From positions 1,695 through 65,694 of the forward strand of contig CAYMZY010000001.1 in NCBI GenBank assembly GCA_964395165.1: a DNA stretch of 64,000 nucleotides, in the 5' to 3' direction. The position numbers and the translations under genes are program-made. How positions within the stretch are numbered: position 1 is the stretch's first letter; each line of letters opens with the position of its first letter. Shown one piece after another: positions 2,761-53,369 of this stretch. Origin of the DNA: an uncultured Bdellovibrionales bacterium (GTDB taxonomy: Bacteria > Patescibacteriota > Minisyncoccia > Moranbacterales > UBA1568). The notes under the pieces are model-generated. The model ran no database searches, was not told the origin of the DNA, and saw nothing but the letters and a program-made list of their open reading frames with translations.

Positions 2761-3921
2761 ATGTACAGGGTCTCCTCTCTTTTTTTGGCAGCGGTATGCA
2801 TCGGCTGTTTCGGATTCGGGAGTCAGACATTTGCCTTGGGGGAGTCATGTACTTCACCTGATACGCCAGGAACCGGTGTCTGTGCAGATTATGATGATCG
2901 GGAAGCGTTCGATGTATCGCGTTTCTGCAGCCCTATCGCTTTTCCTGGTAATTCATCCTGTGCATCGGGTTCTGGTTTCATCGTATGCGCCTTTAATTGT
3001 TCACCAGCATATTCTCCCGGTAGCGGTCCGAGTGATTCTTCCGGCAGTGGTCCGAGTGATTCCGACACAGGGGGACCTGGCGCAGCTTCCGGCAGCGGTC
3101 CGAGTGATTCTGACACGGGTTCTTCCTGGGATTGGTTCGGTACCGATTCAGGCTCTCCTTCCGAATCCGATGGCACTCCGGGTACGGGCTCTCCTTCCGG
3201 ACCTTCCACATCGGGAAGCGGTCCGAGCTCAAGCAGTGGCTCCGGAGCGTCGCCCTGTCGTGGCAGTAGTGGGCGAACGGGTTCCTGTGTCGCGTCCTGC
3301 TCCTCTCCTTCCGATCTCATTTCCCCGGCTTCCGGCTGTGCGACAGGACAATCCTGTTGTGCCGGAGCGGCAGCAGCCACTGGGAGCGGGGCGGGGGCTG
3401 GCGGTGGAACAAAGACTATTTCGATAAAAAATCCGGTAGCGTTCAACACGGTAGAGGCCTTGCTCTCAGGAGGAATCCTTCCCTGGCTTCAGGGAATCGT
3501 CGCGACGATCGCCCTTGTTTTCTTTGTCATCGGAGCGGTCATGTATATGACTGGCGGAGTGGATGAGGGTAATGTCAAACAGGGGAAAGCCACCATGACT
3601 GCTGCTCTTGCTGGTTTCGCTCTCGCGCTCGCCGCGCCGACCTTTCTTAAGGAAATTTACGGTATTTTTGGGGCTTCTTCTTCGACTGCTGGCCCGACCC
3701 TGATCGGCATATCACTTAATGTCTTGAAGTTTCTTATTTCCATTGTTGGTATTCTCGGGACCATTATGCTCGTCGTCAGTGGCCTTTCCTACATGGGTTC
3801 CGCCGGAGCGGATGATAAAGCGAAATCAGCTAAAAAAATGGCGACCTATGCTGTTATCGGTATCGCCCTCGCTTTGGCCGCATTGATTATCATCCGGCAA
3901 GTTACGAAATTCTTTTCGTAG
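2761..3921 (+). CDS. secreted Cys-rich, Ser/Gly/Pro-rich protein with two tandem TrbC/VirB2-like pilin-type membrane modules
   Basis: Signal peptide MYRVSSLFLAAVCIGCFGFG. Cys-rich N-domain (about 10 Cys), low-complexity GSGPSDSD repeats, a second Cys cluster, then two repeats of a paired-TM module (LLSGGILPWLQGIVATIALVFFVIGAVMYM...TAALAGFALALAAP and LIGISLNVLKFLISIVGILGTIMLVV...YAVIGIALALAALIII) resembling VirB2/TrbC pilins. Confidence 0.5.
   Translation: MYRVSSLFLAAVCIGCFGFGSQTFALGESCTSPDTPGTGVCADYDDREAFDVSRFCSPIAFPGNSSCASGSGFIVCAFNCSPAYSPGSGPSDSSGSGPSDSDTGGPGAASGSGPSDSDTGSSWDWFGTDSGSPSESDGTPGTGSPSGPSTSGSGPSSSSGSGASPCRGSSGRTGSCVASCSSPSDLISPASGCATGQSCCAGAAAATGSGAGAGGGTKTISIKNPVAFNTVEALLSGGILPWLQGIVATIALVFFVIGAVMYMTGGVDEGNVKQGKATMTAALAGFALALAAPTFLKEIYGIFGASSSTAGPTLIGISLNVLKFLISIVGILGTIMLVVSGLSYMGSAGADDKAKSAKKMATYAVIGIALALAALIIIRQVTKFFS
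3010..3125 (+). repeat. imperfect tandem repeats (ggcagyggtccgagtgattcyg..) encoding GSGPSDSD units
   Basis: Three copies of cggcagcggtccgagtgattc-like units are visible in the sequence. They are the source of spurious alternate-frame ORFs 2831-3449. Confidence 0.6.
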
Positions 3922-7452: not shown

Positions 7453-8574
7453 ATGCCTTTTTTTGGGAATCCTCGTTTTTTGGGAATCGATTTCGGGACT
7501 GCCGCTTTGAAGGTGGTCGAGCTTGAACTTATCGGTGGAAAACCGGTCCTGGTGAACTATGGAGTGGCTGATTTTTCGCATCTGGAAGAGGAACTTAAGA
7601 ATGCGACATATACCTATGATGAGGCGGTGAGTCTCTATCTCCATGCTCTTCTGGTGAAAATGCAGCCGAAGACCAACAGCGCATATATCGCGATGCCAGC
7701 GTATACGGGGCTGATAACGCTCGTCGAGTTTCCGGAGTTGGACGAGACGCAGATGAGCGAGGCGGTACAATTCGAGGCGCACAAGTATGTGCCGGCCACA
7801 TCGCTTGACGATGTCGCTCTTTCGTGGGAAGTCATCGAGCGACGGAAGGGAAGCGAAGGGGAAATGATCATGGAAGTTCTTCTGGTGGCTGCTCTCAGGA
7901 AGGAAGTCAATCGGTATCAGTCATATATTCGACAGGAGTCCCTGGAAATGAGCCTGCTTGAAATAGAGACATTCGCGATTGTGCGGGCTTTGCTTGAAAA
8001 AAGTTCCGGATCTGGAGCGAAGATCTTGATCGATATCGGGTCTCGCGCGACGAATATCATCTTGACGAATGATGGTTCGGTGAAACTGAGTCGGAACATC
8101 GATACGGGCGGGAAGGATATGACGAGGACTTTGGCGGATACGATTGAGGTGGCTCGATCTCGTGCGGAGGAACTCAAGAAGAGCGGGAAGGATTTTTTGA
8201 ATCAACGGGAGTCGGCTGTCGTATTCCCGACACTGCAGGTGGTAATCACGGAAACGAAGCGAGTCATCGCTTCCCATGAGGAAAAGCATCCTGAATCGAA
8301 AGTGACGGAAATCATCCTCTCGGGCGGGTCGTCCCGATTGGCCGGTATCGTCGAGTATTTTTCGTCGATATTCGAGCTTCCAGTCAGTATCGGGCATCCT
8401 TGGTCGAAGATCCAAGCGACGGAAAAACAACAAGCAATGATTCACGAGACGGATACTTCGTTTGCGGTAGCGATCGGGCTGGCATTGGGAGGGGTGGAAA
8501 GCTCCATCAATGAAAAAAAACAGAATAAAGGTTTTTTTGGAGGGCTGGATGCCATGTTTCAGAAGAAAATATAG
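7453..8574 (+). CDS. pilM: type IV pilus assembly protein PilM (actin-like ATPase)
   Basis: FLGIDFGTAALKVVELE N-terminus, ASKHA fold motifs (LIDIGSRATNII, ILSGGSSRLAGI). Confidence 0.85.
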   Translation: MPFFGNPRFLGIDFGTAALKVVELELIGGKPVLVNYGVADFSHLEEELKNATYTYDEAVSLYLHALLVKMQPKTNSAYIAMPAYTGLITLVEFPELDETQMSEAVQFEAHKYVPATSLDDVALSWEVIERRKGSEGEMIMEVLLVAALRKEVNRYQSYIRQESLEMSLLEIETFAIVRALLEKSSGSGAKILIDIGSRATNIILTNDGSVKLSRNIDTGGKDMTRTLADTIEVARSRAEELKKSGKDFLNQRESAVVFPTLQVVITETKRVIASHEEKHPESKVTEIILSGGSSRLAGIVEYFSSIFELPVSIGHPWSKIQATEKQQAMIHETDTSFAVAIGLALGGVESSINEKKQNKGFFGGLDAMFQKKI

Positions 8575-8616
8575 TATAATATCAATCGGGTCGGTCATAA
8601 AATAAAACAGAAGCGT

Positions 8617-9171
8617 ATGCCAGGAGTGAATCTGTCACAATCTATCGCGGAAAAGTCGGCGTATCAGACGAAGAGCGGGAGCGATAAAGGGCGTCTGGTT
8701 ATGTTTGGTATGTTTTTTTTGACGCTGCTTGTCTGGGGAGGTGTGCGAGCCGGTCTGTTTTCTTACGAGAAGAAGATCATGGCGATTCAGCAGGAGATAG
8801 AGGTGAAGAAATCGGGTTTTGGCGGCGCCGTGATCAGTGATATCGCTGATGTGGACGCCCGTCTCGCTCTGGTTAATCAGGAAAAGGCAACTCAGACTTA
8901 TCCGAAAGTCATTTTGACGGGACTTGAAGCAACGGTCTTACCGGTGAATCGTCTGACGAATTTTGATTATGACTTCGAGAAGAGCCTTATCCATATCGTA
9001 GGTGAGGCTCCCGGGTATAAAGAGGTGGCGCAGCAGCTAATGGTGTTTAAGACCTCGCCGCTTTTTTCGGATGTTGTCGTCTCGAGCCTTTCTCGTACGA
9101 AAGATGAAGAAGATGTTTCATCCGTAGTGGTTTTTGATATTACCCTGGTTTGGAACAAGAAGGATAAATAA
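8617..9171 (+). CDS. pilN: PilN-like pilus assembly protein
   Basis: Short cytoplasmic N-terminus, single TM (LVMFGMFFLTLLVWGGV), then a coiled-coil periplasmic part. Position directly after pilM. Confidence 0.55.
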   Translation: MPGVNLSQSIAEKSAYQTKSGSDKGRLVMFGMFFLTLLVWGGVRAGLFSYEKKIMAIQQEIEVKKSGFGGAVISDIADVDARLALVNQEKATQTYPKVILTGLEATVLPVNRLTNFDYDFEKSLIHIVGEAPGYKEVAQQLMVFKTSPLFSDVVVSSLSRTKDEEDVSSVVVFDITLVWNKKDK

Positions 9172-9187
9172 TTTTTATTGTATACGT

Positions 9188-10042
9188 ATGAGTCTCAAAC
9201 TTCTCGCCATACCCCTTCTCGTCATCTCCATCCTGGTGATCGCCATCAGTTACGTAAAGCCGGACCTCGTTCTCTTATCTGAAAAAAGACGTCAACTGGA
9301 ACACTTCCGGCTCCAAGCAGCCTCGCTCGATAGGATTTCATCCAATATCAAGTCGATGCAAACGCAGATAGCGACTAGTAACTCCGACCCTGGATCCCAG
9401 GTGACGGATGCCGATTTCTTGCGTCAGGTCTATTTCCCGGCTGTTTCGGATATCGAGAAGGGAATCGATCAGTTGAATTTTCTGGCCGATCAGAGCGGGG
9501 TTGCCGTGAGTGATATACAGGTGCAGGATGTGGAAAAGAAATCAGCTGTCTCGGCTCTAGGAGGCCTGGAGGATAGCGCAAGTGGTAGTGCCGAGCTTCT
9601 GATTGCAAATGAATCCGACGTTGCGGTAGAGGCGGTTCCGGTCGCCATACATCGGACATATACCCCGGATACTTTCATAGTTACCATCGAAACCGTCGGT
9701 TCCTACGAGGCAACAAAGGATTTCTACGCTCGCCTGGTTCAGGCAAAGCGTTTTTTCTTTCCAAAGGTAATGAAACTTGCCAATAAGGACCAGGGGAGCT
9801 CCGGTTTCCCTGGAACGGAAAAGAAAGAGGATGTCTCTTCGGATACCCTGGTTTCAAGTGTGGAAGTCGAGTTTTCGGTTCTTCCAACGGTATCGGTCGC
9901 CTCCGCTGTCGGGGATGATGCTTTCGAGAAAGCGAAACTTGATTTCGAGACGTTGGCGATGATTCGTCAGGATCAGCAGGGAGTGACGCCGGCTTTGCCT
10001 GCGGCTAATACTCTCGGGAAGACGAACTTGTTCGTTAAGTAG
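9188..10042 (+). CDS. PilO-like / hypothetical bitopic pilus assembly protein
   Basis: Single TM (LLAIPLLVISILVIAISYV) plus coiled-coil, between pilN and pilB. Start chosen at the in-frame ATG MSLKLL. Confidence 0.4.
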   Translation: MSLKLLAIPLLVISILVIAISYVKPDLVLLSEKRRQLEHFRLQAASLDRISSNIKSMQTQIATSNSDPGSQVTDADFLRQVYFPAVSDIEKGIDQLNFLADQSGVAVSDIQVQDVEKKSAVSALGGLEDSASGSAELLIANESDVAVEAVPVAIHRTYTPDTFIVTIETVGSYEATKDFYARLVQAKRFFFPKVMKLANKDQGSSGFPGTEKKEDVSSDTLVSSVEVEFSVLPTVSVASAVGDDAFEKAKLDFETLAMIRQDQQGVTPALPAANTLGKTNLFVK

Positions 10043-10077
10043 ATCGGACAGTCCGACTTATAAGAAGAGGGCATCCT

Positions 10078-11724
10078 ATGGAAGAGACCGAAACGCAGAT
10101 GACTGTGCCGAAAGTTTCAGACACGTCTTCCGGTACTGTGCCGGTCCTTTCGGAGTTCCCGAAACAGCTGGAAAAACGGATACTGGAAATCATCCCCGAA
10201 GCGACGGCTCGCAAGCATCGCCTGTTTTGTTTTGAAAAGACTGATACGTTGCTCCGTATCGCCATGGTTGATCCGTCGGATTTCGATGCTATGAATATGC
10301 TCCGTTTCCTTGCGGAAAAGGAGTCATTGAGTATCGAAATTTATCGGACGACGGAAACTGTCTTTGGTGAAGTGATGAGGAATTACAGCGGAACCGATAA
10401 GGCGTTGCAGAATGCGATCCTCTCCCTCAAGAAAGGAGCCGAATCAGGAATCGATCTTGAGGCGGAAAAAAAGAAGGTCGTTCAGGGGGAGATATTCCAG
10501 GACGCTCCTATCGCGAAGCTGGTGGAGGTTATTGTCAAGCATGCTCTTGATGGAAGAGCGAGTGATATCCACATCGAACCGATAGAGGGCAATTACCGTG
10601 TCCGGTTCCGAATCGATGGGGTACTCAAATCACAATTGGTCTTTCCGCTTGAGGTGGGACGGGCGGTGGTGTCACGTATCAAGATACTGTCGAATCTCAA
10701 AATCGATGAGAAGCGTAAGCCACAGGACGGGCGTATTCACTTCGAAAGCGGTGGACGGGCGGTCGATCTCCGCGTCTCCTCACTGCCGGTTATGGAGGGA
10801 GAGAAGATCGTGATGCGCGTCCTCGACCGGGCCAACAATGTGAGCGATTTCGATGTTCTGGGACTTCTGGGAAGAAACCGGACCGTTCTTCTGAATAAGA
10901 TACGTGAACCGTTCGGCATCGTTTTGATCACGGGTCCGACCGGTTCCGGGAAATCGACCACCCTGTATGCTTTCTTGCAGATCCTGAATCAGGAAGAGCG
11001 TAATATCGTGACGCTCGAGGATCCCGTGGAGTACTTTATCGATGGTGTGAATCAGAGTCAGATCCGACCGGAAATCGGATACACATTCTCCGCCGGTCTC
11101 CGTTCGATTCTTCGCCAGGATCCGAATATCATCATGGTCGGAGAAATCCGCGATAATGAGACGGCCGAACTGGCGATCCATGCCGCATTGACCGGACACC
11201 TCGTCCTCTCCACGCTCCATACTAATGACGCGATCGGATCGGTTCCGAGATTGGTCGATATGGGTGTCGAATCCTTCCTTTTGGCGTCCTCGTTGCAGTC
11301 GGTCGCCGCACAGCGTTTGGTGCGGAAAATCTGTGAAAAATGCAAGACGGAGATGAAGATCACCGATCTTCAGAGGAATCGCCTGGCACAGATGTACCAG
11401 GAGATACCGCTTGCAGAGAAGAAGGCGTACAACTTGAAAGACAATCAGGAGATCAAGGTGTTCAAGGGTGAGGGTTGTGATGACTGTGGAAGGACCGGGC
11501 ACAAGGGTCGTATCGGAATATATGAAGTTTTCGAGATCACCGACCCGGTGAAGAGCATTATCACCGACCACAATGCGAACGAGCACGAGCTTCGGAAGGA
11601 GTCCTTGGGCCAAGGCATGATCAGTATGAAAGAAGACGGTATTCTCAAAGTGCTGCTCGGTCTGACGACGCTCGCCGAGGTTGAACGGGCGACCGAGGGG
11701 AAATTATTGATCGATGAAGAGTAG
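10078..11724 (+). CDS. pilB: type IV pilus assembly ATPase PilB (GspE family)
   Basis: Walker A GPTGSGKSTTLYA, Asp box, His box. C-terminal tetracysteine CEKC...CDDCGRTG. Confidence 0.9.
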   Translation: MEETETQMTVPKVSDTSSGTVPVLSEFPKQLEKRILEIIPEATARKHRLFCFEKTDTLLRIAMVDPSDFDAMNMLRFLAEKESLSIEIYRTTETVFGEVMRNYSGTDKALQNAILSLKKGAESGIDLEAEKKKVVQGEIFQDAPIAKLVEVIVKHALDGRASDIHIEPIEGNYRVRFRIDGVLKSQLVFPLEVGRAVVSRIKILSNLKIDEKRKPQDGRIHFESGGRAVDLRVSSLPVMEGEKIVMRVLDRANNVSDFDVLGLLGRNRTVLLNKIREPFGIVLITGPTGSGKSTTLYAFLQILNQEERNIVTLEDPVEYFIDGVNQSQIRPEIGYTFSAGLRSILRQDPNIIMVGEIRDNETAELAIHAALTGHLVLSTLHTNDAIGSVPRLVDMGVESFLLASSLQSVAAQRLVRKICEKCKTEMKITDLQRNRLAQMYQEIPLAEKKAYNLKDNQEIKVFKGEGCDDCGRTGHKGRIGIYEVFEITDPVKSIITDHNANEHELRKESLGQGMISMKEDGILKVLLGLTTLAEVERATEGKLLIDEE

Positions 11725-11728
11725 CGCT

Positions 11729-11757
11729 TTGGTCTTATCGGTTTTTTCGGATATACT
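11729..11757 (+). promoter_or_regulatory. putative sigma70-type promoter for pilT (TTGGTC-N17-TATACT)
   Basis: The hexamers are visible. The -10 matches the TATACTG motif that recurs in this window. Confidence 0.3.
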
Positions 11758-11799
11758 GTCAGGAGGAGTTCGGGTTGAATCAATACAAAAACGTATCCT

Positions 11800-12894
11800 A
11801 TGGAAACAAACCTACATGCGGATCAGCGGATCAAGAACCTCTTGTTTCTTGTTGGCCAGCAGAAGGCTTCGGATCTGCATCTGGTAGTCGGGCGTCACCC
11901 GACCCTGCGTATTGACGGCAAGCTCGTACCGATCGTCCAGGAAAAAGTCCTGACTCCCGATGATACCAAAGCGTTGTCGCAGGCTATTCTTACCGAAGAG
12001 AAACAGGAAGAGTTGCTGGCGAAAGGGCATACGGATTTCTCGTATGCGTTTGAGGAGCGGGCCCGTTTCCGAGTGAACGTTTTCTTTCAGAAGGGATATA
12101 TCAGTGTCACGATGCGGTTCGTCATGGACCGGTTGCGAAGTCTTGAAGAATTGAATGTCCCGACGGCTCTGTATAATTTTACCAAGTATTCGCAGGGGCT
12201 TGTTCTGGTGACCGGACCGGTAGGGCACGGAAAGTCGACTACTCTGGCGGCCATAATCGATTTCATCAATCACAACTATGACAAACATATCCTGACTATC
12301 GAGGATCCGATCGAATTCGTGTACAGTCAGGATCGGTGCATCGTCAATCAGCGTGAAATCGGCCGGGATGCGAAGAGTTTTCCCGATGCGCTCCGGGCGG
12401 TCTTTCGGGAAGATGCGAATGTCGTGCTTTTGGGTGAGTTGCGCGATCTGGAAACCATCGGTACCGCCATGACGGCCGCCGAGACCGGGCACCTCATTTT
12501 TGCGACACTGCATACCAATGACAGCTCGCAGACGATCGATCGTATCATTGATGTCTTTCCTGCTTATCAGCAGAATCAAATCCGGTCTCAGCTGGCGAGT
12601 GTCCTGATCGGAGTCATCTCTCAACGCCTGCTTCCTCAGGTGGGCGGAGGACGGGTGCCGGCGGTTGAGATCATGTTCAAGAACCATGCGGTGGAGAATT
12701 TGATTCGCGAGAATAAGATACATCAGATCGATGGTGTGATCGAGACGAGTCTGAAGGAAGGTATGATATCGCTTGATCGTTCTCTCGCGGAACTTGTTCG
12801 CCAGGGACTCATCTCGGTGGAAGACGCTTTCTCTTATGCGAAGAATCAGGATTATCTCCAGATGATCATCGCAAAAATGGCTGAAAAAGCCTGA
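11800..12894 (+). CDS. pilT: twitching motility ATPase PilT
   Basis: Walker A GPVGHGKSTTLAA, ILLGELRD, AIRN-like C-terminus. 364 aa. Confidence 0.9.
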   Translation: METNLHADQRIKNLLFLVGQQKASDLHLVVGRHPTLRIDGKLVPIVQEKVLTPDDTKALSQAILTEEKQEELLAKGHTDFSYAFEERARFRVNVFFQKGYISVTMRFVMDRLRSLEELNVPTALYNFTKYSQGLVLVTGPVGHGKSTTLAAIIDFINHNYDKHILTIEDPIEFVYSQDRCIVNQREIGRDAKSFPDALRAVFREDANVVLLGELRDLETIGTAMTAAETGHLIFATLHTNDSSQTIDRIIDVFPAYQQNQIRSQLASVLIGVISQRLLPQVGGGRVPAVEIMFKNHAVENLIRENKIHQIDGVIETSLKEGMISLDRSLAELVRQGLISVEDAFSYAKNQDYLQMIIAKMAEKA

Positions 12895-12923
12895 TTTTTC
12901 GTAAAACATTATTTGTTATCCGT

Positions 12924-14132
12924 ATGAAATTCGTATTCAAGGCGAAAACCGAAGCGGGTCAAGAGCGGTCAGGTATCGTCGAGGCTCTGAGTCGAGAGGC
13001 TGCTATCCTGGTACTTCAAAACAACGGTCTCACGCCATTTTCCGTACAGGAGGAGGCGCACGATGTCGCATTGATTCGGGATATTTCGAAACTGTGGGAG
13101 GGGGTGTCCCAGAAGGAGCTGATGGTGATGTTTCGACAGCTGGCGACATTGATCAGTGCCCGAGTTCCGATGGTTTCGGCCTTGGATACCCTGGCGGATC
13201 AGACACCGAATCGATATTTTCGTATTATCCTAAAGGAGATAGAAGATGATGTGGAAGACGGTTCATCGTTTTCAGAAAGCTTGGAAAAGCATCCGACCGT
13301 ATTCGAACCGCTGGTCATCAATATGCTCCGGGCCGGAGAGGTTTCAGGAACCCTTCAGCGGGCGATCGAGGTGGTCGCGGAAAATATCGAGAAGAATTAC
13401 CAGCTGTCAGCCAAGATCAAGGGGGCGCTGTTCTATCCAGGATTCGTCTTTTCGGCGGCACTTATCATCGGGTTTCTCGTGGTGACGTTCATCCTGCCGA
13501 AACTGACTGGTCTGATTCGTGATCTCGGAGTTCCGATTCCGTGGTATACGGAGGTGCTCATGTGGATCGGGGATTTCATGAATGCGTACTGGTGGGCAGT
13601 ACTGCTCGTGTTTTTTGCGGCCGGTCTCTCATTTTTCTACTATATCAACACTGCGGCGGGACAGGCCGATTGGAATCGGGTGGTCCTGAAGTTGCCTATA
13701 TTTGGAGACCTCATGAAATACGTCTATATCACCCGTTTTTCGGAAAATATGAGCTCGCTTCTGAATGGGGGGATTCCGATCGTCAAGGCGCTCATCATCG
13801 TGAGTGACGTGACAGGAAATCTCGTTTTTCGGGAGGTCATCCTGCATGCCGCGGAAGAAGTGAAGACGGGTGGGGCGATGAGTGGGGTGTTTCTCCGTTC
13901 CCCGATCATACCGCCTATCGTGTCGCAGATGATTAAGATCGGCGAGGAGTCGGGATCGGTCGCGAAGGTGCTCGACGGTGTGGCGAGTTTTTACCGGGCG
14001 GAAGTGGAAAACATCACGCGTAACATGACCTCTTTGATAGAGCCGATACTGATCGTATTCCTTGGTATCGGGGTCGGAATTATGGTGGTGGGTATTCTTA
14101 TGCCGATCTATGATATCGCCGGGAAACTTTAA
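12924..14132 (+). CDS. pilC: type IV pilus inner-membrane platform protein PilC (GspF family)
   Basis: 402 aa, two T2SF repeats, three TM segments. Confidence 0.9.
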   Translation: MKFVFKAKTEAGQERSGIVEALSREAAILVLQNNGLTPFSVQEEAHDVALIRDISKLWEGVSQKELMVMFRQLATLISARVPMVSALDTLADQTPNRYFRIILKEIEDDVEDGSSFSESLEKHPTVFEPLVINMLRAGEVSGTLQRAIEVVAENIEKNYQLSAKIKGALFYPGFVFSAALIIGFLVVTFILPKLTGLIRDLGVPIPWYTEVLMWIGDFMNAYWWAVLLVFFAAGLSFFYYINTAAGQADWNRVVLKLPIFGDLMKYVYITRFSENMSSLLNGGIPIVKALIIVSDVTGNLVFREVILHAAEEVKTGGAMSGVFLRSPIIPPIVSQMIKIGEESGSVAKVLDGVASFYRAEVENITRNMTSLIEPILIVFLGIGVGIMVVGILMPIYDIAGKL

Positions 14133-14146
14133 TGGGCGAAAAAGAG

Positions 14147-14176
14147 TTGGTTATTTTTGAAAGGGCAGTGTACAAT
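14147..14176 (+). promoter_or_regulatory. putative promoter for the pilin genes (TTGGTT-N18-TACAAT)
   Basis: Hexamers are about 75 nt upstream of the pilin ATG. AGGAGGTGAGG RBS before the ATG. Confidence 0.35.
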
Positions 14177-14249
14177 AGAGACAATGGAAAAAGAGACCGG
14201 AAGGGTTTCGAAGAAAAATAAAAATCATGAATGGAAAGGAGGTGAGGAC

Positions 14250-14609
14250 ATGAAAAACAATCTGAAAGGTTTCACGCTCATCGAACTCCTGATCGTCATC
14301 GCGATTATCGGTATTCTCGCTTCGATCGTGCTGGTGAGTTTGAGCGGTGCTCGGACAAAGGCGCAAAAGGCGGCGTTCAAAGCTGAAGTGTCCGGAGCGG
14401 TTGGAGGTCTTGTGCTCGAGTGTGATGATGCTGCTCCGACACCACCGGGAGACACGACGGTAACGGATTGGGACAATACGGTAACGGAGGATTGTGGCCC
14501 AGCTGGCGATGGGACCTTCTCGATTAGTGCGGTTCCAGTGGCGACTATCGCTGGTTGCACCGGGGCAAACGCGACAGAAACAGGAGCAGATTTTGCGAGT
14601 TGTCCTTAG
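14250..14609 (+). CDS. pilA: type IV pilin (class III signal peptide)
   Basis: [31 protein letters not shown] prepilin motif (cleavage after G, Glu+5). 4 Cys in the C-terminal half. Confidence 0.8.
14265..14345 (+). repeat. 81-nt exact direct repeat, copy 1 (pilin N-terminal alpha-helix coding region)
   Basis: Identical to 14683-14763 (aaaggtttcacgctcatcgaactcctgatcgtcatcgcgattatcggtattctcgcttcgatcgtgctggtgagtttgagc). Confidence 0.85.
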
Positions 14610-14670
14610 GCTTTCGGGCTCGGGAGATTGACTGGCTTCAAAGGTGTTAAAATTTTTTAAAGAAAGATTT

Positions 14671-15027
14671 ATGTATCAGAAGAAAGGTTTCACGCTCATC
14701 GAACTCCTGATCGTCATCGCGATTATCGGTATTCTCGCTTCGATCGTGCTGGTGAGTTTGAGCAATGCTCGGACGAAGGCGCAGGTGGCGTCATTCAAGG
14801 CGGAGACATCTGGAGCGAATGCTGGGCTTTTGCTCCAGTGTGACACCGCTGCTCCTACGCCACCAACCGATACGACGACAACTAACTGGGCCAACGCCAT
14901 CACGAGTAGCTGCGGAGCTGCCGGAAGCGGAACATTCAGAATTACCGCGGTTCCGATTAACACAGCCTTGAACTGCACCGCTACGGTCACCAACACGGGA
15001 ACAACCTATGCGGGGGCGGGCTGCTAG
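14671..15027 (+). CDS. pilA: type IV pilin paralog (class III signal peptide)
   Basis: [22 protein letters not shown]. The C-terminal half diverges from copy 1 but keeps 4 Cys and a Thr/Pro-rich stretch. Confidence 0.8.
14683..14763 (+). repeat. 81-nt exact direct repeat, copy 2
   Basis: See 14265-14345. Confidence 0.85.
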
Positions 15028-15128: not shown

Positions 15129-16778
15129 ATGAGATTGTTTAGCTGGCCGGATCTTTTGAAGAAAATGAGTCGTTTCGTCAGTGACCAGACTTTACCCTTT
15201 TGGGGAAAGCTGGTTATCGCATACATGTTTTTTTCCCTCCTGTTTTCGGCATATTTTCTCTTGCCATCCTTTACCTCTCTTGATGACCAATTTTTCAATA
15301 TCAAGTTCGCTGAGCTTATCCGGGAACGGGGTATGGGTGCGTTTTCGCATTTTGACTGGTTCAGTGCTGTCGGATCGTATGCCTGGCATGCGAATATGTT
15401 GTTCTATATCTTCCTTATTCCATTTACCTTCGTCGAGCCGCTCGAACTCGGAATCAAACTCTATGCCGTAGCGTCCCTTTCCTTTACTTTTTGTGTGGTA
15501 TACGCTTTCTTTTCCGTCCTCCGGATGCGGTCCGCATTCATCTCAACGCTTGTGATTTTGGCAATTTTTTTCGTTCCGTTGGCCATATGGCATTTCTTGA
15601 TGGCGAGAGCTTTCGTTGTCCTGCCGGCGTCCTTGCTGCTCGAGCTCATTTTTTTGCTTCGGAAACGTTACGTATCGGCTGCGGTACTTGCATTCCTGTA
15701 TTTCTTCTGGCATATCGGAACTTTCTTCTTTCCGCTGGTCGTGGCAGTGGTCTATGCCGTCGCGCTGATTTTTGAAGGGAAGCCATGGAATCGATGGATA
15801 ATACTGGCCCCTCTCGTCGGGACATCGGCTGCAATGGTATTAGGGGGATTTCTTCTACCCGGATTCGCCTCCGGATTCTTTGAAAGCTTTGCAACGATCT
15901 TGAGAACCGTTTCGGAGACGGGATTTTCTGGACAGGCTGTCGTGCAGGAGGGTGGAGAGGTATACCCACTCAATGTCTTTGATTTATACGGATTGGCATC
16001 CGTCTTGATGGGCTTATTCATCTTTTTTCTTGTTAGGGATACGAAGGGATATCTGGCTCATTCGAAGAACAAGGGAGAATCCGTTTTTCAGTACGATGCC
16101 GCTTGGGGAACCTTGTTCATTCTCAGCATCATCTTTCTTCTGGGGACACTCATTACGAAGCGCATGCTGGACTTCTTCGTCGTATTTGCTCCAGTGTTCC
16201 TTCTGTATCGGCTACGATATATCCTTGATCTTTGGAGAAGGGAGCAGGCTGTGAATACCGCGATCGGCGTGGTGATTTTTTTCGGTCTTCTGACGAATTT
16301 GCTTCTGGTGGGAGACCAGGTTTCGCAGACCAGACGATATACTTCGATTCGGGGAGCGGCTGAGTGGCTTACCCGAAACTCTCAGCCAGGGGAGATTGTG
16401 TTCAATCCGACCATAAATTACTTCCCGACGTTCTTCTTCTTCAATCAGTACCATAATCGCCTCATCATCGGAATCGAACCCCGACTTTTGTATGAAGCTG
16501 ATCCGGAAAAGTATTGGCTGTGGTATCATGTTTCCAACGAGGGGAAGGTGTGCGATCGGCAGACATGCGACTCGGATATCCTGTCCGGAAAAGACACGCA
16601 GGAGAAGGGTCTGGCTGTCGCACACATGATGAAAACGGAGTTTTCGGCCCAATTCGTCATCGTTTCCGGGGAATTCGACTCCTTGCTTGAAATCATGCGC
16701 GGTTCGACGGCTTTTCAAAGGGTATATACGGACCCGATCGATAGGTACTACGAGGTATACTCCATACGCCCGGAATAA
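15129..16778 (+). CDS. polytopic membrane protein, putative GT-C-type glycosyltransferase (ArnT/PMT/GT39-83-like architecture)
   Basis: 549 aa, about 11-13 TM then a roughly 150-aa soluble C-terminal domain. Acidic SLDDQ motif in the first predicted outside loop. The function is inferred from architecture and context only. Confidence 0.45.
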   Translation: MRLFSWPDLLKKMSRFVSDQTLPFWGKLVIAYMFFSLLFSAYFLLPSFTSLDDQFFNIKFAELIRERGMGAFSHFDWFSAVGSYAWHANMLFYIFLIPFTFVEPLELGIKLYAVASLSFTFCVVYAFFSVLRMRSAFISTLVILAIFFVPLAIWHFLMARAFVVLPASLLLELIFLLRKRYVSAAVLAFLYFFWHIGTFFFPLVVAVVYAVALIFEGKPWNRWIILAPLVGTSAAMVLGGFLLPGFASGFFESFATILRTVSETGFSGQAVVQEGGEVYPLNVFDLYGLASVLMGLFIFFLVRDTKGYLAHSKNKGESVFQYDAAWGTLFILSIIFLLGTLITKRMLDFFVVFAPVFLLYRLRYILDLWRREQAVNTAIGVVIFFGLLTNLLLVGDQVSQTRRYTSIRGAAEWLTRNSQPGEIVFNPTINYFPTFFFFNQYHNRLIIGIEPRLLYEADPEKYWLWYHVSNEGKVCDRQTCDSDILSGKDTQEKGLAVAHMMKTEFSAQFVIVSGEFDSLLEIMRGSTAFQRVYTDPIDRYYEVYSIRPE

Positions 16779-49607: not shown

Positions 49608-50423
49608 ATGGGTATCTTTTTTTTCTTTTCTTTGGGTTTGATAGTAGGAAGTTTCCTGAATGTCGTCGCGCTGCGATTGGAAACAGGGACGGATTTCATC
49701 CGTGGACGTTCGGCTTGTCCGCAGTGTCAGTCGCTTATCGCTTGGTATGACAATATTCCGCTTTTCTCATTCTTTTTTCTCAGGGGAAAGTGCCGATCCT
49801 GCAAAGCGCCTATCCCGTGGCGTTATCCGCTGGTTGAATTGGGTACCGGACTCGTGTACGCCGGTACATTCTGGTTGTTTCTCGACCCGGTTGGAACCAC
49901 ATTGATCGAGACGGTCTGGTTACTTGGGCTCTTCTCCCTTTTAATCATCATCGGCCTGTATGATGCGAAAACGATGGAGATACCGGTCCTACTCCTTCAG
50001 GTGAGCGCGTTTTGGACGATTGTGGCGCTTCTTCTTCTGGATTGGAGCCTGTCGACGAATATGATGTGGGCTTGGGATGGGCGGACCGTTTCGGGGCTGC
50101 TCGGTGCTTTGGGAGCCTGGATTTTTTTCGCAGCCCTCTCTTTTTTCTCCAAAGAGACGTGGATGGGCTGGGGAGATTCATGGTTAGCGGCTATCATCGG
50201 GCTTGCCGTGGGTATCGGGGGGGTATTTTTTGCTCTGACTCTTTCTTTCGCTATCGGCGCGATTTTCTCCTGTATTCTTTTGTTTCGAAAAAAAGCAGGT
50301 ATGACTACCCAGGTCCCTTTTGGGCCTTTTCTCGTTGCGGGTCTTATATCGTATTTTTTTCTTTCCCGGCTCGATGCAATCCGGTATGGGAGTAACGCAT
50401 GGTTATCCTCTCTTTTTTCCTGA
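49608..50423 (+). CDS. pilD: prepilin peptidase PilD (A24 family)
   Basis: N-terminal CPQC...CRSC zinc motif. Catalytic Asp motifs (YDAKTMEIP; GWGDSWLAA). 8 TM. Confidence 0.85.
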   Translation: MGIFFFFSLGLIVGSFLNVVALRLETGTDFIRGRSACPQCQSLIAWYDNIPLFSFFFLRGKCRSCKAPIPWRYPLVELGTGLVYAGTFWLFLDPVGTTLIETVWLLGLFSLLIIIGLYDAKTMEIPVLLLQVSAFWTIVALLLLDWSLSTNMMWAWDGRTVSGLLGALGAWIFFAALSFFSKETWMGWGDSWLAAIIGLAVGIGGVFFALTLSFAIGAIFSCILLFRKKAGMTTQVPFGPFLVAGLISYFFLSRLDAIRYGSNAWLSSLFS

Positions 50424-50461
50424 GGTCATCCAGTGTGATACTGATGCGAAAGACCGTTTTT

Positions 50462-50490
50462 TTGTCGGATGGGGTGAGGTGCTGTATACT
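50462..50490 (+). promoter_or_regulatory. putative promoter TTGTCG-N17-TATACT for the pseudopilin operon
   Basis: Hexamers seen. TGTATACT motif. Confidence 0.35.
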
Positions 50491-50547
50491 ATACTTATTG
50501 GAAGGGTCTGATTTCTTTAATTTTTTCAAATTCGCAGGAAATCCGAT

Positions 50548-51072
50548 ATGCCTCAAAAGAAAGGATTCACCCTCATCGAAGTCCTGGTGGTTGTCGCTAT
50601 CATCGGTATCGCTTCGGCGATCATCCTCGTGTCTATTGGCAACGGAAGGACACAAAAACAAGTGGAAGGTGATGCTCGCCGTTTGGTCGGCATGTTGCGT
50701 GAAATTCAGAATGATGCGCTCTCGGGAAAACAAGTCGTTTTAGGAAGGATTTCATGCGCTTTCGTGTTTCCGCCGTCCGCTAGTGCCGAAACTATCATCT
50801 CTCCTACGTATAGGTATCGGAATGGTGCGAGTTGTGCATCCACTCTGAGCGATGATCTTCCGTCTCTCAATCTGACTCCGGGGGTGAGCATTTCGGTTGC
50901 GAATGCGGGGGTCAGTTTCGTGGTTCCGTGGGGAGAGGTCTGGGATGGGTCATTGACGGCTCGGTTGGCAAGTACGGTCCAATATACACTGGTCAAGTCG
51001 GGAGTAACCTGGTCGGTTTGCGTGTACCCCGGAGGCCGGATTGAAGAAATAGCCGGGGCGAGTTGCCCGTAG
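50548..51072 (+). CDS. type IV pilin-like protein / pseudopilin
   Basis: [28 protein letters not shown] class III signal. Confidence 0.7.
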   Translation: MPQKKGFTLIEVLVVVAIIGIASAIILVSIGNGRTQKQVEGDARRLVGMLREIQNDALSGKQVVLGRISCAFVFPPSASAETIISPTYRYRNGASCASTLSDDLPSLNLTPGVSISVANAGVSFVVPWGEVWDGSLTARLASTVQYTLVKSGVTWSVCVYPGGRIEEIAGASCP

Positions 51073-51088
51073 ATACATCAGGATTCAT

Positions 51089-51802
51089 ATGAGAATATCC
51101 AGAGTCATGAACAGGGACCATAAGGAACGCGGAAGAATAGTGGTGTTTTCTTGTCCGCTTTCTGGACAGAAAAAAAGCGGAAACGCTTTTCGAGTCCGCG
51201 CTTTTTCGATGGTAGAAGTGATTATCGCATCCGCGATCGTCGCTATCGGTCTGACTGCCGTGTTGCAGCTCCTATCCTCATCGCTCAATAACGTTTTTCG
51301 TGATACGGATGCCATAGTGGCGACAGAGCTCGCTCAGGAGGGTTTGGAATACACGTACAATGTCCGAGATAGCAACCTTGCCGCGACCAGCGACGCTTTC
51401 CCGACCTCGGGAACGCGCGCCTTTCCTGGTACCTCTTCAAGGAATTTTTGTCGATTAGATGCGACGACTCCGAGATTCGTTCTGTCTGGCGCCAGTCGGA
51501 ACTGCTTCCCGGATGCGAGGCGTTCGTCACGCCGATATTCGCTTGTTCCAGTGGGGAATTTTTACGTATTCCAAAATGCGGTCACGCATTTCGCTCGCGT
51601 TATCTTTATCGAGCTAGACAATGTCTCGGATCCGCAGCAGGCCGAAGTGACCAGTATTGTCTGGTGGGGGCGAAGCGATGTTCATCCGGCGGGGGTTTTT
51701 CCGGGAGCGACTGCTAATACCGTGGATGTTTCTCAGTGCACTCGGGCGAACCAGTGTGTCTACGTGCAGGCTGTTTTGACGAATTGGAAACCGGGATCAT
51801 AA
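51089..51802 (+). CDS. pseudopilin-like protein (non-canonical prepilin signal ...RAF/SMVEVIIASAIVAIGL)
   Basis: Prepilin-like hydrophobic helix with Glu at +5. Start and leader length uncertain. Confidence 0.5.
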   Translation: MRISRVMNRDHKERGRIVVFSCPLSGQKKSGNAFRVRAFSMVEVIIASAIVAIGLTAVLQLLSSSLNNVFRDTDAIVATELAQEGLEYTYNVRDSNLAATSDAFPTSGTRAFPGTSSRNFCRLDATTPRFVLSGASRNCFPDARRSSRRYSLVPVGNFYVFQNAVTHFARVIFIELDNVSDPQQAEVTSIVWWGRSDVHPAGVFPGATANTVDVSQCTRANQCVYVQAVLTNWKPGS

Positions 51803-52544: not shown

Positions 52545-53369
52545 GTGTTTTTTATGAATCTGCATTTCGGTTTCTTTTCGGGAGTGGATCGGCAGCCGGG
52601 GATAAAAAGAAAGAGTTTTTTCAGAGTCGATGTTCGTGCGTTCGCCCCCCTTTTTTTTCTTGTCGGGGGCAGCTTGTCTCCCGTTATTGATGGAGGTGCT
52701 TTTTCGGAGTTGACCGATCTCCCAGCGGTAACGATGGTTCAGAGGTTCGATCCGCCTGTCGGGCTTCCTGAATCTGTTCAGGAGAATTCGGAACAGAATG
52801 ATAATCTCGTTCGATGTCGCTGGCAGGCAGATCGGGTACTTCTATCCTCGCTCGGGCAAGAGATACCTCTTCGCGCTTCTGGGACGGGGTGTTCTGAAGA
52901 GGAAGGCGAGAGTATCGGCAATCGGAGCGAGAACCGGGGAATACGCGAAAAGGTGATTGCTCTCACCTCGGAAGAATATCCTCTTTCGGTTATGGCGGGG
53001 AGCATCGCCTTGTACGACCCTCCTATTGCCGGACTTATTGTCGGTATCGCGAAAAAGGAAAGCGATTGGGGGAAGCATACCCCGAAACTCCATGGAGAGG
53101 AGTGTTTCAATTATTGGGGATATCGTGGGTATGGTAATCGCGGTGTGACCGAGGATGGGTATGGTTGTTTCGAAAAGCCGGCCGATGCCGTTCAGGTTAT
53201 CGGGAACCGTTTGATCGAGCTTTCTTCGGTGCGTGGCGGAATGACTGATCCGGAACAGATGATCATGTGGAAATGCGGTTCAAGCTGTCAGGGGCACAGT
53301 CCGGAGAGCGTCCGCAAATGGATCAGCGATGTGAGGTTGTATTATCAGCAGTTCGCCGGGGTGTTCTAG
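52545..53369 (+). CDS. hypothetical secreted protein with a possible GH73-like (N-acetylglucosaminidase/lysozyme-like) C-terminal domain
   Basis: IAKKESDWGKH...NYWGYRGYG resembles the GH73 (FlgJ/AcmA) catalytic Glu region. Weak evidence. Start uncertain. Confidence 0.35.
   Translation: MFFMNLHFGFFSGVDRQPGIKRKSFFRVDVRAFAPLFFLVGGSLSPVIDGGAFSELTDLPAVTMVQRFDPPVGLPESVQENSEQNDNLVRCRWQADRVLLSSLGQEIPLRASGTGCSEEEGESIGNRSENRGIREKVIALTSEEYPLSVMAGSIALYDPPIAGLIVGIAKKESDWGKHTPKLHGEECFNYWGYRGYGNRGVTEDGYGCFEKPADAVQVIGNRLIELSSVRGGMTDPEQMIMWKCGSSCQGHSPESVRKWISDVRLYYQQFAGVF

What the first reader, a model, noticed from the sequence alone, without database searches (positions are those of the whole stretch)
2761..3921. 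Cys-rich secreted protein ending in two tandem VirB2/TrbC-like pilin modules, with no other T4SS genes nearby
**What the sequence shows.** The gene encodes a 387-aa protein with four parts:
- a signal peptide;
- a domain of about 70 aa carrying roughly 10 Cys;
- a Gly/Ser/Pro-rich spacer built from imperfect GSGPSDSD repeats;
- a second Cys cluster (CRGSSGRTGSC..SCCAGAAA).

It then carries two consecutive copies of a module of about 80 aa, each a pair of hydrophobic helices. This is the VirB2/TrbC conjugative-pilin fold signature, here duplicated and fused to an extracellular Cys-rich head.

**Interpretation.** No VirB4, VirB6 or VirD4 homolog is in the window, so this could be a stand-alone adhesin or pilin-like surface filament subunit. 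It could equally be a membrane-anchored surface protein that merely mimics the pilin pattern.
Basis: partly seen in the sequence, partly recalled or inferred. Interest (0 to 1): 0.5.

Follow-up and report, generated by a model that had tools for sequence, protein, structure and literature searches.

The report
Two-hairpin VirB2-like pilin, Cys-rich head
This gene encodes a secreted membrane protein from an ultra-small "candidate phyla radiation" bacterium. It fuses two copies of a type IV secretion pilin unit behind a strain-specific cysteine-rich head, which is an unusual variant of a pilin family already known in these bacteria rather than a new kind of system.

Summary
ORF 2761-3921 (+) encodes 386 aa:
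- a signal peptide;
- an orphan 6-Cys head;
- a Gly/Ser/Pro/Asp-rich spacer;
- a conserved 6-Cys module;
- two tandem helical-hairpin modules.

Both hairpin modules hit Pfam PF18895 T4SS_pilin (E=6.6e-15). No VirB4, VirB6 or VirD4 lies in the 64 kb window, but a type IV pilus (T4P) operon starts 3.5 kb downstream.

The pilin pattern is real homology, not mimicry. All 33 homologues hit PF18895, and some two- and multi-module relatives also pass Pfam's TrbC/VirB2 model.

The organism is a Candidatus Moraniibacteriota (Patescibacteria). VirB2-like pilin arrays and a monoderm-type T4SS are already published for this group.

New here:
- In about 65 related genomes, a two-module pilin is usually the last gene of a same-strand array of single-module pilins.
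- The window gene belongs to a small clade (8 loci) of solitary duplicates that moved next to comF, a clpB-like gene and pilMNO.
- In this strain alone it carries an extra orphan head. A second, error-prone assembly of the same strain confirms that DNA.

Fold searches were uninformative. The function is inferred: a surface or pilus subunit that displays a variable disulfide-rich head and is served by a T4SS encoded elsewhere. Interest is modest.

The parts
2761..3921 (+). Whole gene: 386-aa secreted two-module VirB2-like (T4SS_pilin) protein, stop codon included.
   Evidence: ORF list and sequence. Pfam PF18895 E=6.6e-15 with 2 stretches. 34 homologues found.
2761..2835 (+). Signal peptide, residues 1-25 (MYRVSSLFLAAVCIGCFGFGSQTFA). 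Cleavage after TFA is inferred. There is no lipobox and no type IV prepilin motif.
   Evidence: Hydropathy. AF2 helix 2-18. Orthologues share the MYR... hydrophobic start followed by AxA. SignalP was not available.
2836..3015 (+). Strain-specific Cys-rich head, residues 26-85, with 6 Cys in the pattern C-x10-C-x14-C-x10-C-x8-C-x3-C. Fold unknown.
   Evidence: Cys positions. No homologue found in 5.8 billion proteins. AF2 pLDDT below 50. Identical DNA apart from homopolymer indels in an independent assembly, L010. Absent from orthologues.
3016..3255 (+). Low-complexity Gly/Ser/Pro/Asp spacer, residues 86-165, with three GSGPSDS repeats. Predicted disordered.
   Evidence: Composition. Tandem Repeats Finder reports a 24-nt period at 3011-3062. 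pLDDT below 50. Its 3' part (GSPSGPSTSGSGPSSSSGSGA) is nearly identical to the linker of P0001.
3256..3360 (+). Conserved six-Cys module, residues 166-200 (C-x9-C-x3-C-x12-C-x5-CC). It is a small beta-rich extracellular domain whose Cys spacing resembles that of beta-defensins.
   Evidence: C166, C176 and C200 are invariant and C180 and C199 nearly so. AF2 pLDDT 78-89 with three short strands. The motif occurs in 40 of 74 two-module pilins against 0-3 in shuffles. Defensin-type hits are only sub-threshold and Foldseek found nothing.
3361..3426 (+). Ala/Gly-rich linker, residues 201-222.
   Evidence: Composition. pLDDT below 50 for residues 204-223.
3427..3669 (+). Pilin module 1, residues 223-303: the NPxxF lead-in, helix 228-264, the polar loop GGVDEGNVKQGK, helix 269-303, and the highly conserved junction APTFLKEIY.
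   Evidence: PF18895 best stretch at residues 237-296. AF2. Invariant P225, G258, Y262, P293, L296 and E298. The loop is net positive across the family.
3670..3918 (+). Pilin module 2, residues 304-386: helix 313-346, the loop GSAGADDKAKSAKK, and helix 351-385.
   Evidence: Second PF18895 stretch. Cross-hit with the module 1 HMM. AF2. Weak NCBIfam Mbov_0395 pilin-like hit at residues 323-383.

Best explanation
The gene encodes a Sec-exported member of the Patescibacterial VirB2-like pilin family (Pfam T4SS_pilin) from a Candidatus Moraniibacteriota bacterium. It is a recent, relocated duplicate of the two-hairpin gene that normally closes this lineage's chromosomal pilin arrays.

**Proposed mechanism.**
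1. The signal peptide is cleaved.
2. The two hairpins insert as four transmembrane helices, with the N and C termini outside and the Lys-rich inter-helix loops inside.
3. The conserved six-Cys module stays outside the monoderm cell, tethered by a flexible Gly/Ser/Pro stalk. In this strain an extra orphan six-Cys head is tethered the same way. Both are presumed to be disulfide-bonded.
4. A T4SS encoded elsewhere in the genome uses the protein as a specialised pilin subunit that contributes two adjacent protomers. This T4SS would be VirB4-dependent and of the MPF-FATA type, the mating-pair-formation class of monoderm bacteria and archaea.
5. The variable head is displayed on the cell or pilus surface for contact with a host or partner cell.

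**Shown:** domain anatomy, family membership, lineage, array-terminal position of the paralogues, duplication history, and head variability.

**Inferred:** signal-peptide cleavage, topology, disulfides, dependence on a T4SS, polymerisation, and an adhesive role.
For: **Family membership.**
- PF18895 hits with two stretches and in 33 of 33 homologues.
- Homologues with the same architecture also pass Pfam TrbC/VirB2: P0031 E=7.7e-12 with 2 stretches, and P0114 E=1e-14.
- There are weak CagC hits in 8 of 33 homologues and a weak Mycoplasma ICE (integrative conjugative element) pilin hit.

**Lineage.** The 65 genomic loci are almost all Moraniibacteriota or Moranbacteria MAGs.

**Link to T4SS parts.** In relatives the two-module gene closes same-strand arrays of 1-8 single-module pilins.
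- These arrays often open with a fusion of a pilin hairpin and an SLT (VirB1-like) domain.
- One array lies next to a VirD4-like coupling protein.

**Duplication.**
- The solitary copies beside comF and the clpB-like gene form one clade.
- That clade is sister to array-terminal copies.
- Both kinds occur in the same MAGs.

**Topology.**
- Four helices at pLDDT 70-78.
- The hairpin loops are net positive, while the pre-module and junction segments are net negative.
- The Cys-rich parts must be extracytoplasmic if they are to form disulfides.

**Display role.** The conserved core is always C-terminal, while the N-terminal part ranges from nothing to about 700 aa with no known domains.

**Published background.**
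- VirB2-like pilin arrays and an essential T4SS are documented in Patescibacteria (PMC12102498, PMC12857230, PMC11665869).
- VirB4 is present in 2417 of 3035 genomes.
- Pilins are often encoded away from virB4.
Against: - No VirB4, VirB6 or VirD4 lies in the 64 kb window, nor within 10 kb of most related arrays. The link to a T4SS rests on homology and on published surveys, not on this genome.
- The window protein itself does not reach Pfam TrbC/VirB2 at E<=1.
- Profile-profile comparison with an alignment of eight annotated VirB2/TrbC proteins is weak: P=0.076 and 0.0081, against 0.12 and 0.27 for reversed controls.
- No fused two-hairpin VirB2 has been shown to polymerise.
- The short C-terminal tail is net positive, which fits an 'outside' location less well.
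Confidence: 0.55

Rival explanations
1. It is a generic four-helix membrane anchor. The two hairpins only tether an extracellular Cys-rich protein (an adhesin, receptor or enzyme inhibitor) to the cytoplasmic membrane. The protein is never extracted or polymerised and does not depend on a T4SS.
For: - No T4SS core genes lie nearby.
- Fold searches see only generic helical bundles.
- AF2 packs the four helices together.
- The head is variable and the anchor conserved, as in surface-display proteins.
Against: - The hairpins are homologous to T4SS pilins and are not just hydrophobic.
- The paralogues sit in pilin arrays together with a VirB1-like SLT fusion and, in one case, a coupling protein.
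- Conservation is strongest in the hairpins and their junction (25 invariant positions), which is more than a passive anchor would need.
Confidence: 0.25
2. It is a polyprotein precursor. The chain is cut after the Cys-rich part and at the conserved inter-module junction. This yields two separate mature pilins and possibly a released disulfide-rich peptide.
For: - Relatives exist with 6-7 pilin modules in one chain, separated by recurring SF[DG][IF]P-type linkers.
- The junction APTFLKEIYxIFG is the most conserved stretch of the family.
- Module 1 and module 2 each resemble a different single-module array pilin.
- Canonical TrbC and VirB2 undergo C-terminal processing or cyclisation (established knowledge, not tested here).
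- A signal peptidase II gene precedes one array.
Against: - No protease gene is conserved next to the arrays.
- A conserved junction could equally be a structural or interaction surface.
- There is no direct evidence of cleavage.
Confidence: 0.12
3. It belongs to the neighbouring competence and type IV pilus machinery (comF, pilMNO-BTC). It would act as an accessory membrane component of DNA uptake rather than of a T4SS.
For: - The gene lies 20 nt from comF and 3.5 kb from pilM.
- This synteny is kept in 8 loci.
- PMC12102498 notes comF and recG near T4SS genes in the class ABY1.
Against: - The gene converges on comF and is not co-transcribed with the pil operon.
- It has no prepilin (N_methyl) motif.
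- The 8 syntenic loci form one young clade, so the synteny reflects shared ancestry.
- The far more numerous paralogues sit in unrelated housekeeping contexts.
Confidence: 0.05
4. The N-terminal head and spacer are an assembly or frameshift artefact, or a decaying insertion. The functional protein would then be only the roughly 245-aa core seen in orthologues.
For: - The head has no homologue and no confident structure.
- The only other copy on record (P0002) reads this stretch in a different frame.
Against: - P0002's contig is the same strain at 99.5% identity and differs only by homopolymer indels. These indels also break clpB, comF and pilT there, so that assembly is the faulty one.
- The window frame is open from the signal peptide through to the core.
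- The head has an even number of Cys (6), and its composition is typical of secreted domains.
Confidence: 0.03

Closest known systems
VirB2-like pilin arrays of Patescibacteria (Southlakia epibionticum ML1, Nanosynbacter lyticus TM7x; Pfam PF18895/PF04956), as surveyed in PMC12102498 and reviewed in PMC12857230
   Same: - Same Pfam family and the same superphylum.
- Signal peptide followed by a helical hairpin.
- Chromosomal genes that often lie away from virB4.
- The paralogues of the window gene sit in arrays of 2-9 pilin genes.
   Different: - Here two hairpins are fused in one polypeptide and preceded by disulfide-rich modules.
- This copy is solitary.
- I found no mention of fused two-module pilins, of a fixed array-terminal position, or of the six-Cys module in the papers searched.
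Canonical conjugative pilins VirB2 (Agrobacterium), TrbC (RP4) and TraA (F)
   Same: - Signal peptide and a two-helix hairpin with a basic loop.
- Some relatives pass Pfam TrbC/VirB2.
- In the weak hhalign match, the module's lead-in motif and first helix line up in register with mature VirB2.
   Different: - Canonical pilins are single hairpins of about 70-120 aa without a head domain, encoded inside a virB or trb operon of diderm bacteria.
- The window protein itself does not reach the TrbC model.
- Structural matches are non-specific.
Mbov_0395-family pilin-like conjugal transfer protein of Mycoplasma ICEs (NCBIfam NF045849)
   Same: It is a small two-helix membrane protein of a monoderm MPF-FATA-type transfer system. 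Module 2 gives a weak match (E=0.014, residues 323-383).
   Different: The score of 15.1 is far below the cut-off of 40. The Mycoplasma protein is a single module with no Cys-rich head.
VirB2 paralogue arrays of Bartonella and Anaplasma, and the CagC pilin of Helicobacter
   Same: These are multiple divergent VirB2 copies thought to vary a surface-exposed structure. Weak CagC profile hits occur in 8 of 33 family members.
   Different: Those are separate genes in diderm pathogens. None has fused hairpins or added head domains.
Beta-defensin-fold mini-proteins (beta-defensins, tick carboxypeptidase inhibitor, helianthamide)
   Same: - The six-Cys module has the C...C...C...C...CC order and similar spacings.
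- AF2 predicts a small three-stranded domain.
- The only PDB and Pfam hits to this region, all sub-threshold, are to this fold class.
   Different: - No hit is significant: PDB E=2-7, Pfam E=0.061.
- Foldseek finds nothing.
- Disulfide connectivity is unknown.
- The module is a tethered domain of a membrane protein, not a free cationic peptide.

Membership tests
Pfam PF18895 T4SS_pilin (Patescibacterial/monoderm VirB2-like pilins) | Profile score above the curated gathering threshold. | tested here: met
   55.4 bits against a cut-off of 26.6, E=6.6e-15, two stretches. All 33 homologues also match.
Pfam PF18895 T4SS_pilin (Patescibacterial/monoderm VirB2-like pilins) | A helical hairpin of about 70 aa: two hydrophobic helices joined by a short polar, basic loop. 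| tested here: met
   AF2 helices 228-264/269-303 and 313-346/351-385 at pLDDT 70-78. Hydropathy peaks. The loops are net positive across the family.
Pfam PF18895 T4SS_pilin (Patescibacterial/monoderm VirB2-like pilins) | N-terminal signal peptide, so that the mature N-terminus is outside the cell. | tested here: inconclusive
   The hydrophobic N-terminus ending in TFA is shared with orthologues. No dedicated signal-peptide predictor was available.
Published Patescibacterial pilin arrays (PMC12102498) | Two to eleven pilin genes in tandem or nearly so. | tested here: not met
   The window holds only one pilin gene. Its paralogues in relatives do sit in arrays of 2-9 genes.
Published Patescibacterial pilin arrays (PMC12102498) | The host is a Patescibacteria/CPR genome. 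| tested here: met
   The closest loci are Candidatus Moraniibacteriota MAGs. The neighbouring genes are syntenic with them.
TrbC/VirB2 conjugative pilins (Pfam PF04956) | Profile match to the TrbC/VirB2 model. | tested here: not met
   The window protein gives no hit at E<=1. Homologues P0031 (45.7 bits against 27.9) and P0114 (54.9 bits) do pass, so superfamily-level homology is supported only transitively. hhalign against eight annotated VirB2/TrbC proteins is weak: P=0.076 and 0.0081.
TrbC/VirB2 conjugative pilins (Pfam PF04956) | Encoded within a T4SS locus together with VirB3, VirB4 and VirB6. | tested here: not met
   None was found in the 64 kb window, nor within 10 kb of most related arrays. 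The exception is a coupling protein in L005.
TrbC/VirB2 conjugative pilins (Pfam PF04956) | Protomer fold superposable on solved VirB2, TraA or TrbC. | tested here: inconclusive
TrbC/VirB2 conjugative pilins (Pfam PF04956) | Polymerises into an extracellular, VirB4-dependent pilus. | not testable with these tools
   This requires microscopy, biochemistry or genetics.
Type IV pilus (T4P) pilins | Class III signal peptide with the N-methylation motif (G/FTLIE). | tested here: not met
   There is no PF07963 hit in this protein, whereas the true T4P pilins at 14157-15027 and 51089-51802 do hit it.
Beta-defensin (trans-defensin) fold, for the six-Cys module only | Six Cys in the order C-C-C-C-CC with defensin-like spacings. 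| tested here: met
   The window module is C-x9-C-x3-C-x12-C-x5-CC. Relatives come as close as C-x6-C-x3-C-x9-C-x5-CC. The motif occurs in 40 of 74 two-module pilins against 0-3 in shuffles. The defensin consensus itself is recalled from memory.
Beta-defensin (trans-defensin) fold, for the six-Cys module only | Significant profile or fold match to known members. | tested here: not met
   Pfam Defensin_beta_2 gives a best E of 0.061 in 4 of 33 members. PDB profile hits have E=2.1-7.1. Foldseek with the module model found no relevant hit.
Beta-defensin (trans-defensin) fold, for the six-Cys module only | Disulfide connectivity C1-C5, C2-C4, C3-C6. | not testable with these tools
This needs disulfide mapping or a solved structure.

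The most novel reading that the evidence does not exclude
The two-hairpin pilin that closes each Moraniibacteriota pilin array is the dedicated tip or adhesin subunit of a T4SS pilus in a monoderm bacterium. It would substitute for the missing VirB5. Its swappable disulfide-rich heads, including this strain's orphan head, would set host specificity for the episymbiont. Its conserved six-Cys module would be a true bacterial representative of the trans-defensin (beta-defensin) fold, which is so far regarded as eukaryotic.
Probability: 0.12. Interest if true: 0.7.

Novelty: new variant of a known kind. Interest (0 to 1): 0.35.

Why it matters
Patescibacteria make up a large share of bacterial diversity, and the role of their essential T4SS is described as completely unknown (PMC11665869).

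A conserved array-terminal pilin made of two fused protomers, with a hypervariable extracellular head, is a concrete candidate for the part that touches the host cell. It offers a handle for several questions:
- host-range prediction;
- antibody or nanobody localisation;
- whether monoderm T4SSs build pili at all.

For annotation, the result is more ordinary. The gene is a recognisable PF18895 family member, and the lack of T4SS genes nearby is normal for this phylum.

Tried and rejected
1. **Exact-sequence look-up of the window protein.** It is not on record.
2. **Homologue search with the N-terminal head alone.** No candidate was found, so its origin stays unknown.
3. **Possible frameshift or pseudogene, raised by P0002.** Rejected. 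L010 is the same strain with homopolymer indels that also break neighbouring genes.
4. **Structure comparisons.**
   - Foldseek on the six-Cys module gave nothing.
   - PDB sequence-profile search gave nothing significant.
5. **Direct hhalign of each module against eight annotated VirB2/TrbC proteins.** The matches are weak, only marginally better than reversed controls, though in register.
6. **Lipoprotein reading.** Rejected, because neither signal-peptide Cys is preceded by a lipobox (sequence).
7. **T4P pilin reading.** Rejected, because there is no N_methyl motif.
8. **Search for T4SS core genes.**
   - None was found in the window.
   - The conserved neighbours of related arrays are housekeeping genes: SBP, methyltransferase, NusA, pyrophosphatase, BipA, IF-2 and RNase Y.
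   - Two conserved neighbours have no Pfam hit.
9. **Promoter and terminator scan around the gene.** Nothing above chance. The window has no tRNAs.
10. **Domains in the long heads of relatives (up to 911 aa).** No Pfam domains were found.
Full report
**1. What is in the sequence**

The ORF at 2761-3921 (+) is real and intact, 386 aa long. Orthologues begin with the same MYR... hydrophobic leader, which supports the ATG at 2761 rather than the upstream TTG at 2725.

My residue count gives these parts:
- Signal-like segment, residues 1-25.
- Head, residues 26-85, with six Cys.
- Spacer, residues 86-165, which is 84% Ser/Gly/Pro/Asp and holds three GSGPSDS copies. Tandem Repeats Finder sees a 24-nt repeat at 3011-3062.
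- Second six-Cys cluster, residues 166-200, with spacing C-x9-C-x3-C-x12-C-x5-CC.
- Ala/Gly-rich linker, residues 201-222.
- Two modules of about 80 aa, each with two hydrophobic helices.

HMMs built from each module across homologues hit the other module (i-E 1.6e-8 and 2.1e-11). They hit nothing else in the window.

**2. Family**

- Pfam T4SS_pilin (PF18895) matches both modules: E=6.6e-15, 55.4 bits against a cut-off of 26.6.
- NCBIfam gives only a weak hit to the Mycoplasma ICE pilin-like family.
- All 33 aligned homologues hit PF18895. Two of them also pass Pfam TrbC/VirB2, at 7.7e-12 with both modules matched.
- Relatives found by the exhaustive profile search pass or approach the TrbC model too: P0114 at 1e-14, P0148 at 4e-6.
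- The window protein itself does not reach the TrbC model.
- My own hhalign of each module against eight annotated VirB2/TrbC proteins is weak: P=0.076 and 0.0081, against 0.12 and 0.27 for reversed controls. The alignment is in register, though.

I therefore file the protein under the Patescibacterial VirB2-like family (PF18895). Relationship to canonical VirB2/TrbC is supported transitively only.

**3. Structure**

AF2 with a 33-sequence alignment gives the following:
- four long helices at pLDDT 70-78;
- the six-Cys module at pLDDT 78-89 with three short strands;
- no confidence for residues 19-160.

The comparisons were uninformative:
- Foldseek against the PDB found nothing significant.
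- The six-Cys module modelled alone (pLDDT 78) found nothing by Foldseek.

Structure comparison therefore neither confirms nor refutes a pilin fold, because helical hairpins carry too little information.

Charge distribution across the family fits an N-out, C-out topology. The hairpin loops are net positive, and the pre-module and junction segments are net negative.

**4. Who carries it, and where**

The homologues come from Candidatus Moraniibacteriota (Moranbacteria), part of the Parcubacteria within Patescibacteria. The window's neighbourhood is ABC transporter, RRM protein, DUF4383, this gene, comF (-), a clpB-like gene (-), then pilM-pilN-pilO-like-pilB-pilT-pilC and pilins. Orthologous contigs reproduce this order gene for gene.

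I surveyed 71 loci with my own ORF calls and module HMMs.
- I found 74 two-module and 142 one-module pilin ORFs.
- The two-module gene is typically the last gene of a same-strand array of 1-8 single-module pilins.
- The array frequently opens with a protein of about 355 aa that joins a pilin hairpin to an SLT lytic-transglycosylase domain, which is VirB1-like.
- In one metagenomic relative, a VirD4-like coupling protein and signal peptidase II lie just upstream.
- Otherwise the array neighbours are housekeeping genes, and no VirB4 lies within 10 kb.

Only eight loci, the window among them, have the solitary arrangement beside comF and the clpB-like gene.
- In a neighbour-joining tree these eight form one clade, sister to array-terminal copies.
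- Individual MAGs carry both kinds (L012 with L018, and L016 with L017).
- The window gene is therefore a recent relocated duplicate.

**5. The variable N-terminus**

- The exhaustive profile search found 34,119 cluster representatives at E<=1e-3 and 357 at E<=1e-30.
- Nearly all of the best 150 cover both modules in one stretch at the C-terminus. Their total lengths run from 197 to 911 aa.
- The long heads have no Pfam domains.
- The six-Cys motif occurs in 40 of 74 two-module pilins, often twice or more, against 0-3 in shuffled controls. It occurs in only 7 of 142 single-module pilins.
- Its Cys order and spacing resemble beta-defensins. The only database hits to this region, all sub-threshold, are to beta-defensin 106, a carboxypeptidase inhibitor, helianthamide and Pfam Defensin_beta_2. 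None is significant, so I report this as a lead only.

The window's extra head (residues 26-85) has no homologue at all. It is confirmed, however, by an independent error-prone assembly of the same strain: L010 is 99.5% identical and differs only by homopolymer indels, which also fragment its clpB, comF and pilT.

The gene looks mosaic.
- Its linker, six-Cys module and 3' end are closest to an array-type gene (L011/P0001), at 80-98% nucleotide identity.
- Module 1 is closer to a solitary orthologue (L015).
- This suggests recombination between the paralogues.

**6. Known context**

- VirB2-like pilins (PF04956 and PF18895) were reported in 1,948 Patescibacteria assemblies. They were near virB4 in 1,135 of them, and 441 arrays of 2-11 genes were found.
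- VirB4 occurs in 2,417 of 3,035 genomes, often near dnaA.
- The system is related to the monoderm MPF-FATA class and mostly lacks relaxases (PMC12102498).
- In Southlakia epibionticum the T4SS and its six-gene pilin array are essential for epibiotic growth. The function of the T4SS is unknown (PMC12857230, PMC11665869).
- I found no description of fused two-hairpin pilins, of their array-terminal position, or of the six-Cys module.

**7. Interpretation**

Most likely this is a VirB2-like pilin variant that supplies two covalently linked protomers. It would display a disulfide-rich, strain-variable head outside the cell and be served by a T4SS encoded elsewhere. A role in host contact is plausible but inferred.

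The rivals are:
- a passive four-helix anchor for a surface protein;
- a polyprotein cleaved into two pilins, a reading prompted by relatives with 6-7 fused modules (P0114 and P0128) and by the extremely conserved junction APTFLKEIY;
- an accessory of the adjacent competence and T4P genes;
- an artefactual N-terminus.

The last two are poorly supported.

**8. Verdict**

The pilin homology is real, but 'stand-alone' is misleading.
- The gene is a new architectural variant of a known, recently described kind.
- Interest is modest. It would rise if the two-hairpin pilin proves to be the host-contacting tip of a monoderm T4SS pilus, or if the six-Cys module is a true bacterial trans-defensin fold.

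Noticed in passing
window 7453-15027, 49608-51802 and 59134-60885: A complete type IV pilus operon: pilM, pilN, a pilO-like gene, pilB, pilT, pilC and two N_methyl pilins. Elsewhere in the window there is a second cluster (prepilin peptidase plus two pilins) and a second PilB-like ATPase.
   Followed up: partly
L007:7056-8171, L018:2500-3576 and similar ORFs of about 355 aa in many loci: The Moraniibacteriota pilin arrays open with a fusion of an N-terminal pilin hairpin and an SLT lytic transglycosylase. This looks like a VirB1-like enzyme anchored by a pilin module.
   Followed up: partly
L007:10797-13102 (-), L011:1107-3070 (-), L005:6362-8382 (-), L009:2832-4871 (-): Two conserved genes without any Pfam family lie on the opposite strand directly after array-type loci. 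One encodes a polytopic membrane protein of 380-476 aa with a beta-rich C-terminus (25 loci). The other encodes a protein of about 200-360 aa with a C-terminal transmembrane helix. Both are absent from the window.
   Followed up: partly
P0114 (606 aa) and P0128 (552 aa), from the representatives search: These are 'poly-pilins': seven and six T4SS_pilin modules concatenated in one polypeptide, with recurring SF[DG][IF]P-type linkers.
   Followed up: partly
window 3170-3921 compared with L011:296-1038 and L015:7945-8682: The similarity is mosaic. The linker, six-Cys module and 3' end are 80-98% identical to an array-type paralogue from another sample. Module 1 is closer to a solitary orthologue. 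This suggests gene conversion or recombination between pilin paralogues.
   Followed up: partly
L010 (JGI 3300056999, contig Ga0558716_34562): This is a second assembly of the same strain. It is riddled with homopolymer indels that split clpB, pilT and comF and put the pilin head in the wrong frame. The database protein P0002 is therefore a mistranslation.
   Followed up: yes
window 15129-16778 (+): A 549-aa membrane protein directly after the T4P pilins has no Pfam hit, even at E<=0.1.
   Followed up: no
window 56005-57675 (+): A secreted 556-aa protein with bacterial TSP3 repeats and Ig-like domains. It is another candidate surface adhesin.
   Followed up: no
window 52545-53369 (+): This 274-aa protein has no Pfam hit. 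It is 44-46% identical to a gene that lies a few genes downstream of array-type pilin loci in relatives (L007:13393-14040, L011:4184-4810).
   Followed up: no
window 1-64000: GC skew is positive in every 2-kb bin and almost all genes are on the + strand. This fits a single leading-strand replichore segment. No tRNA genes occur in the 64 kb.
   Followed up: no
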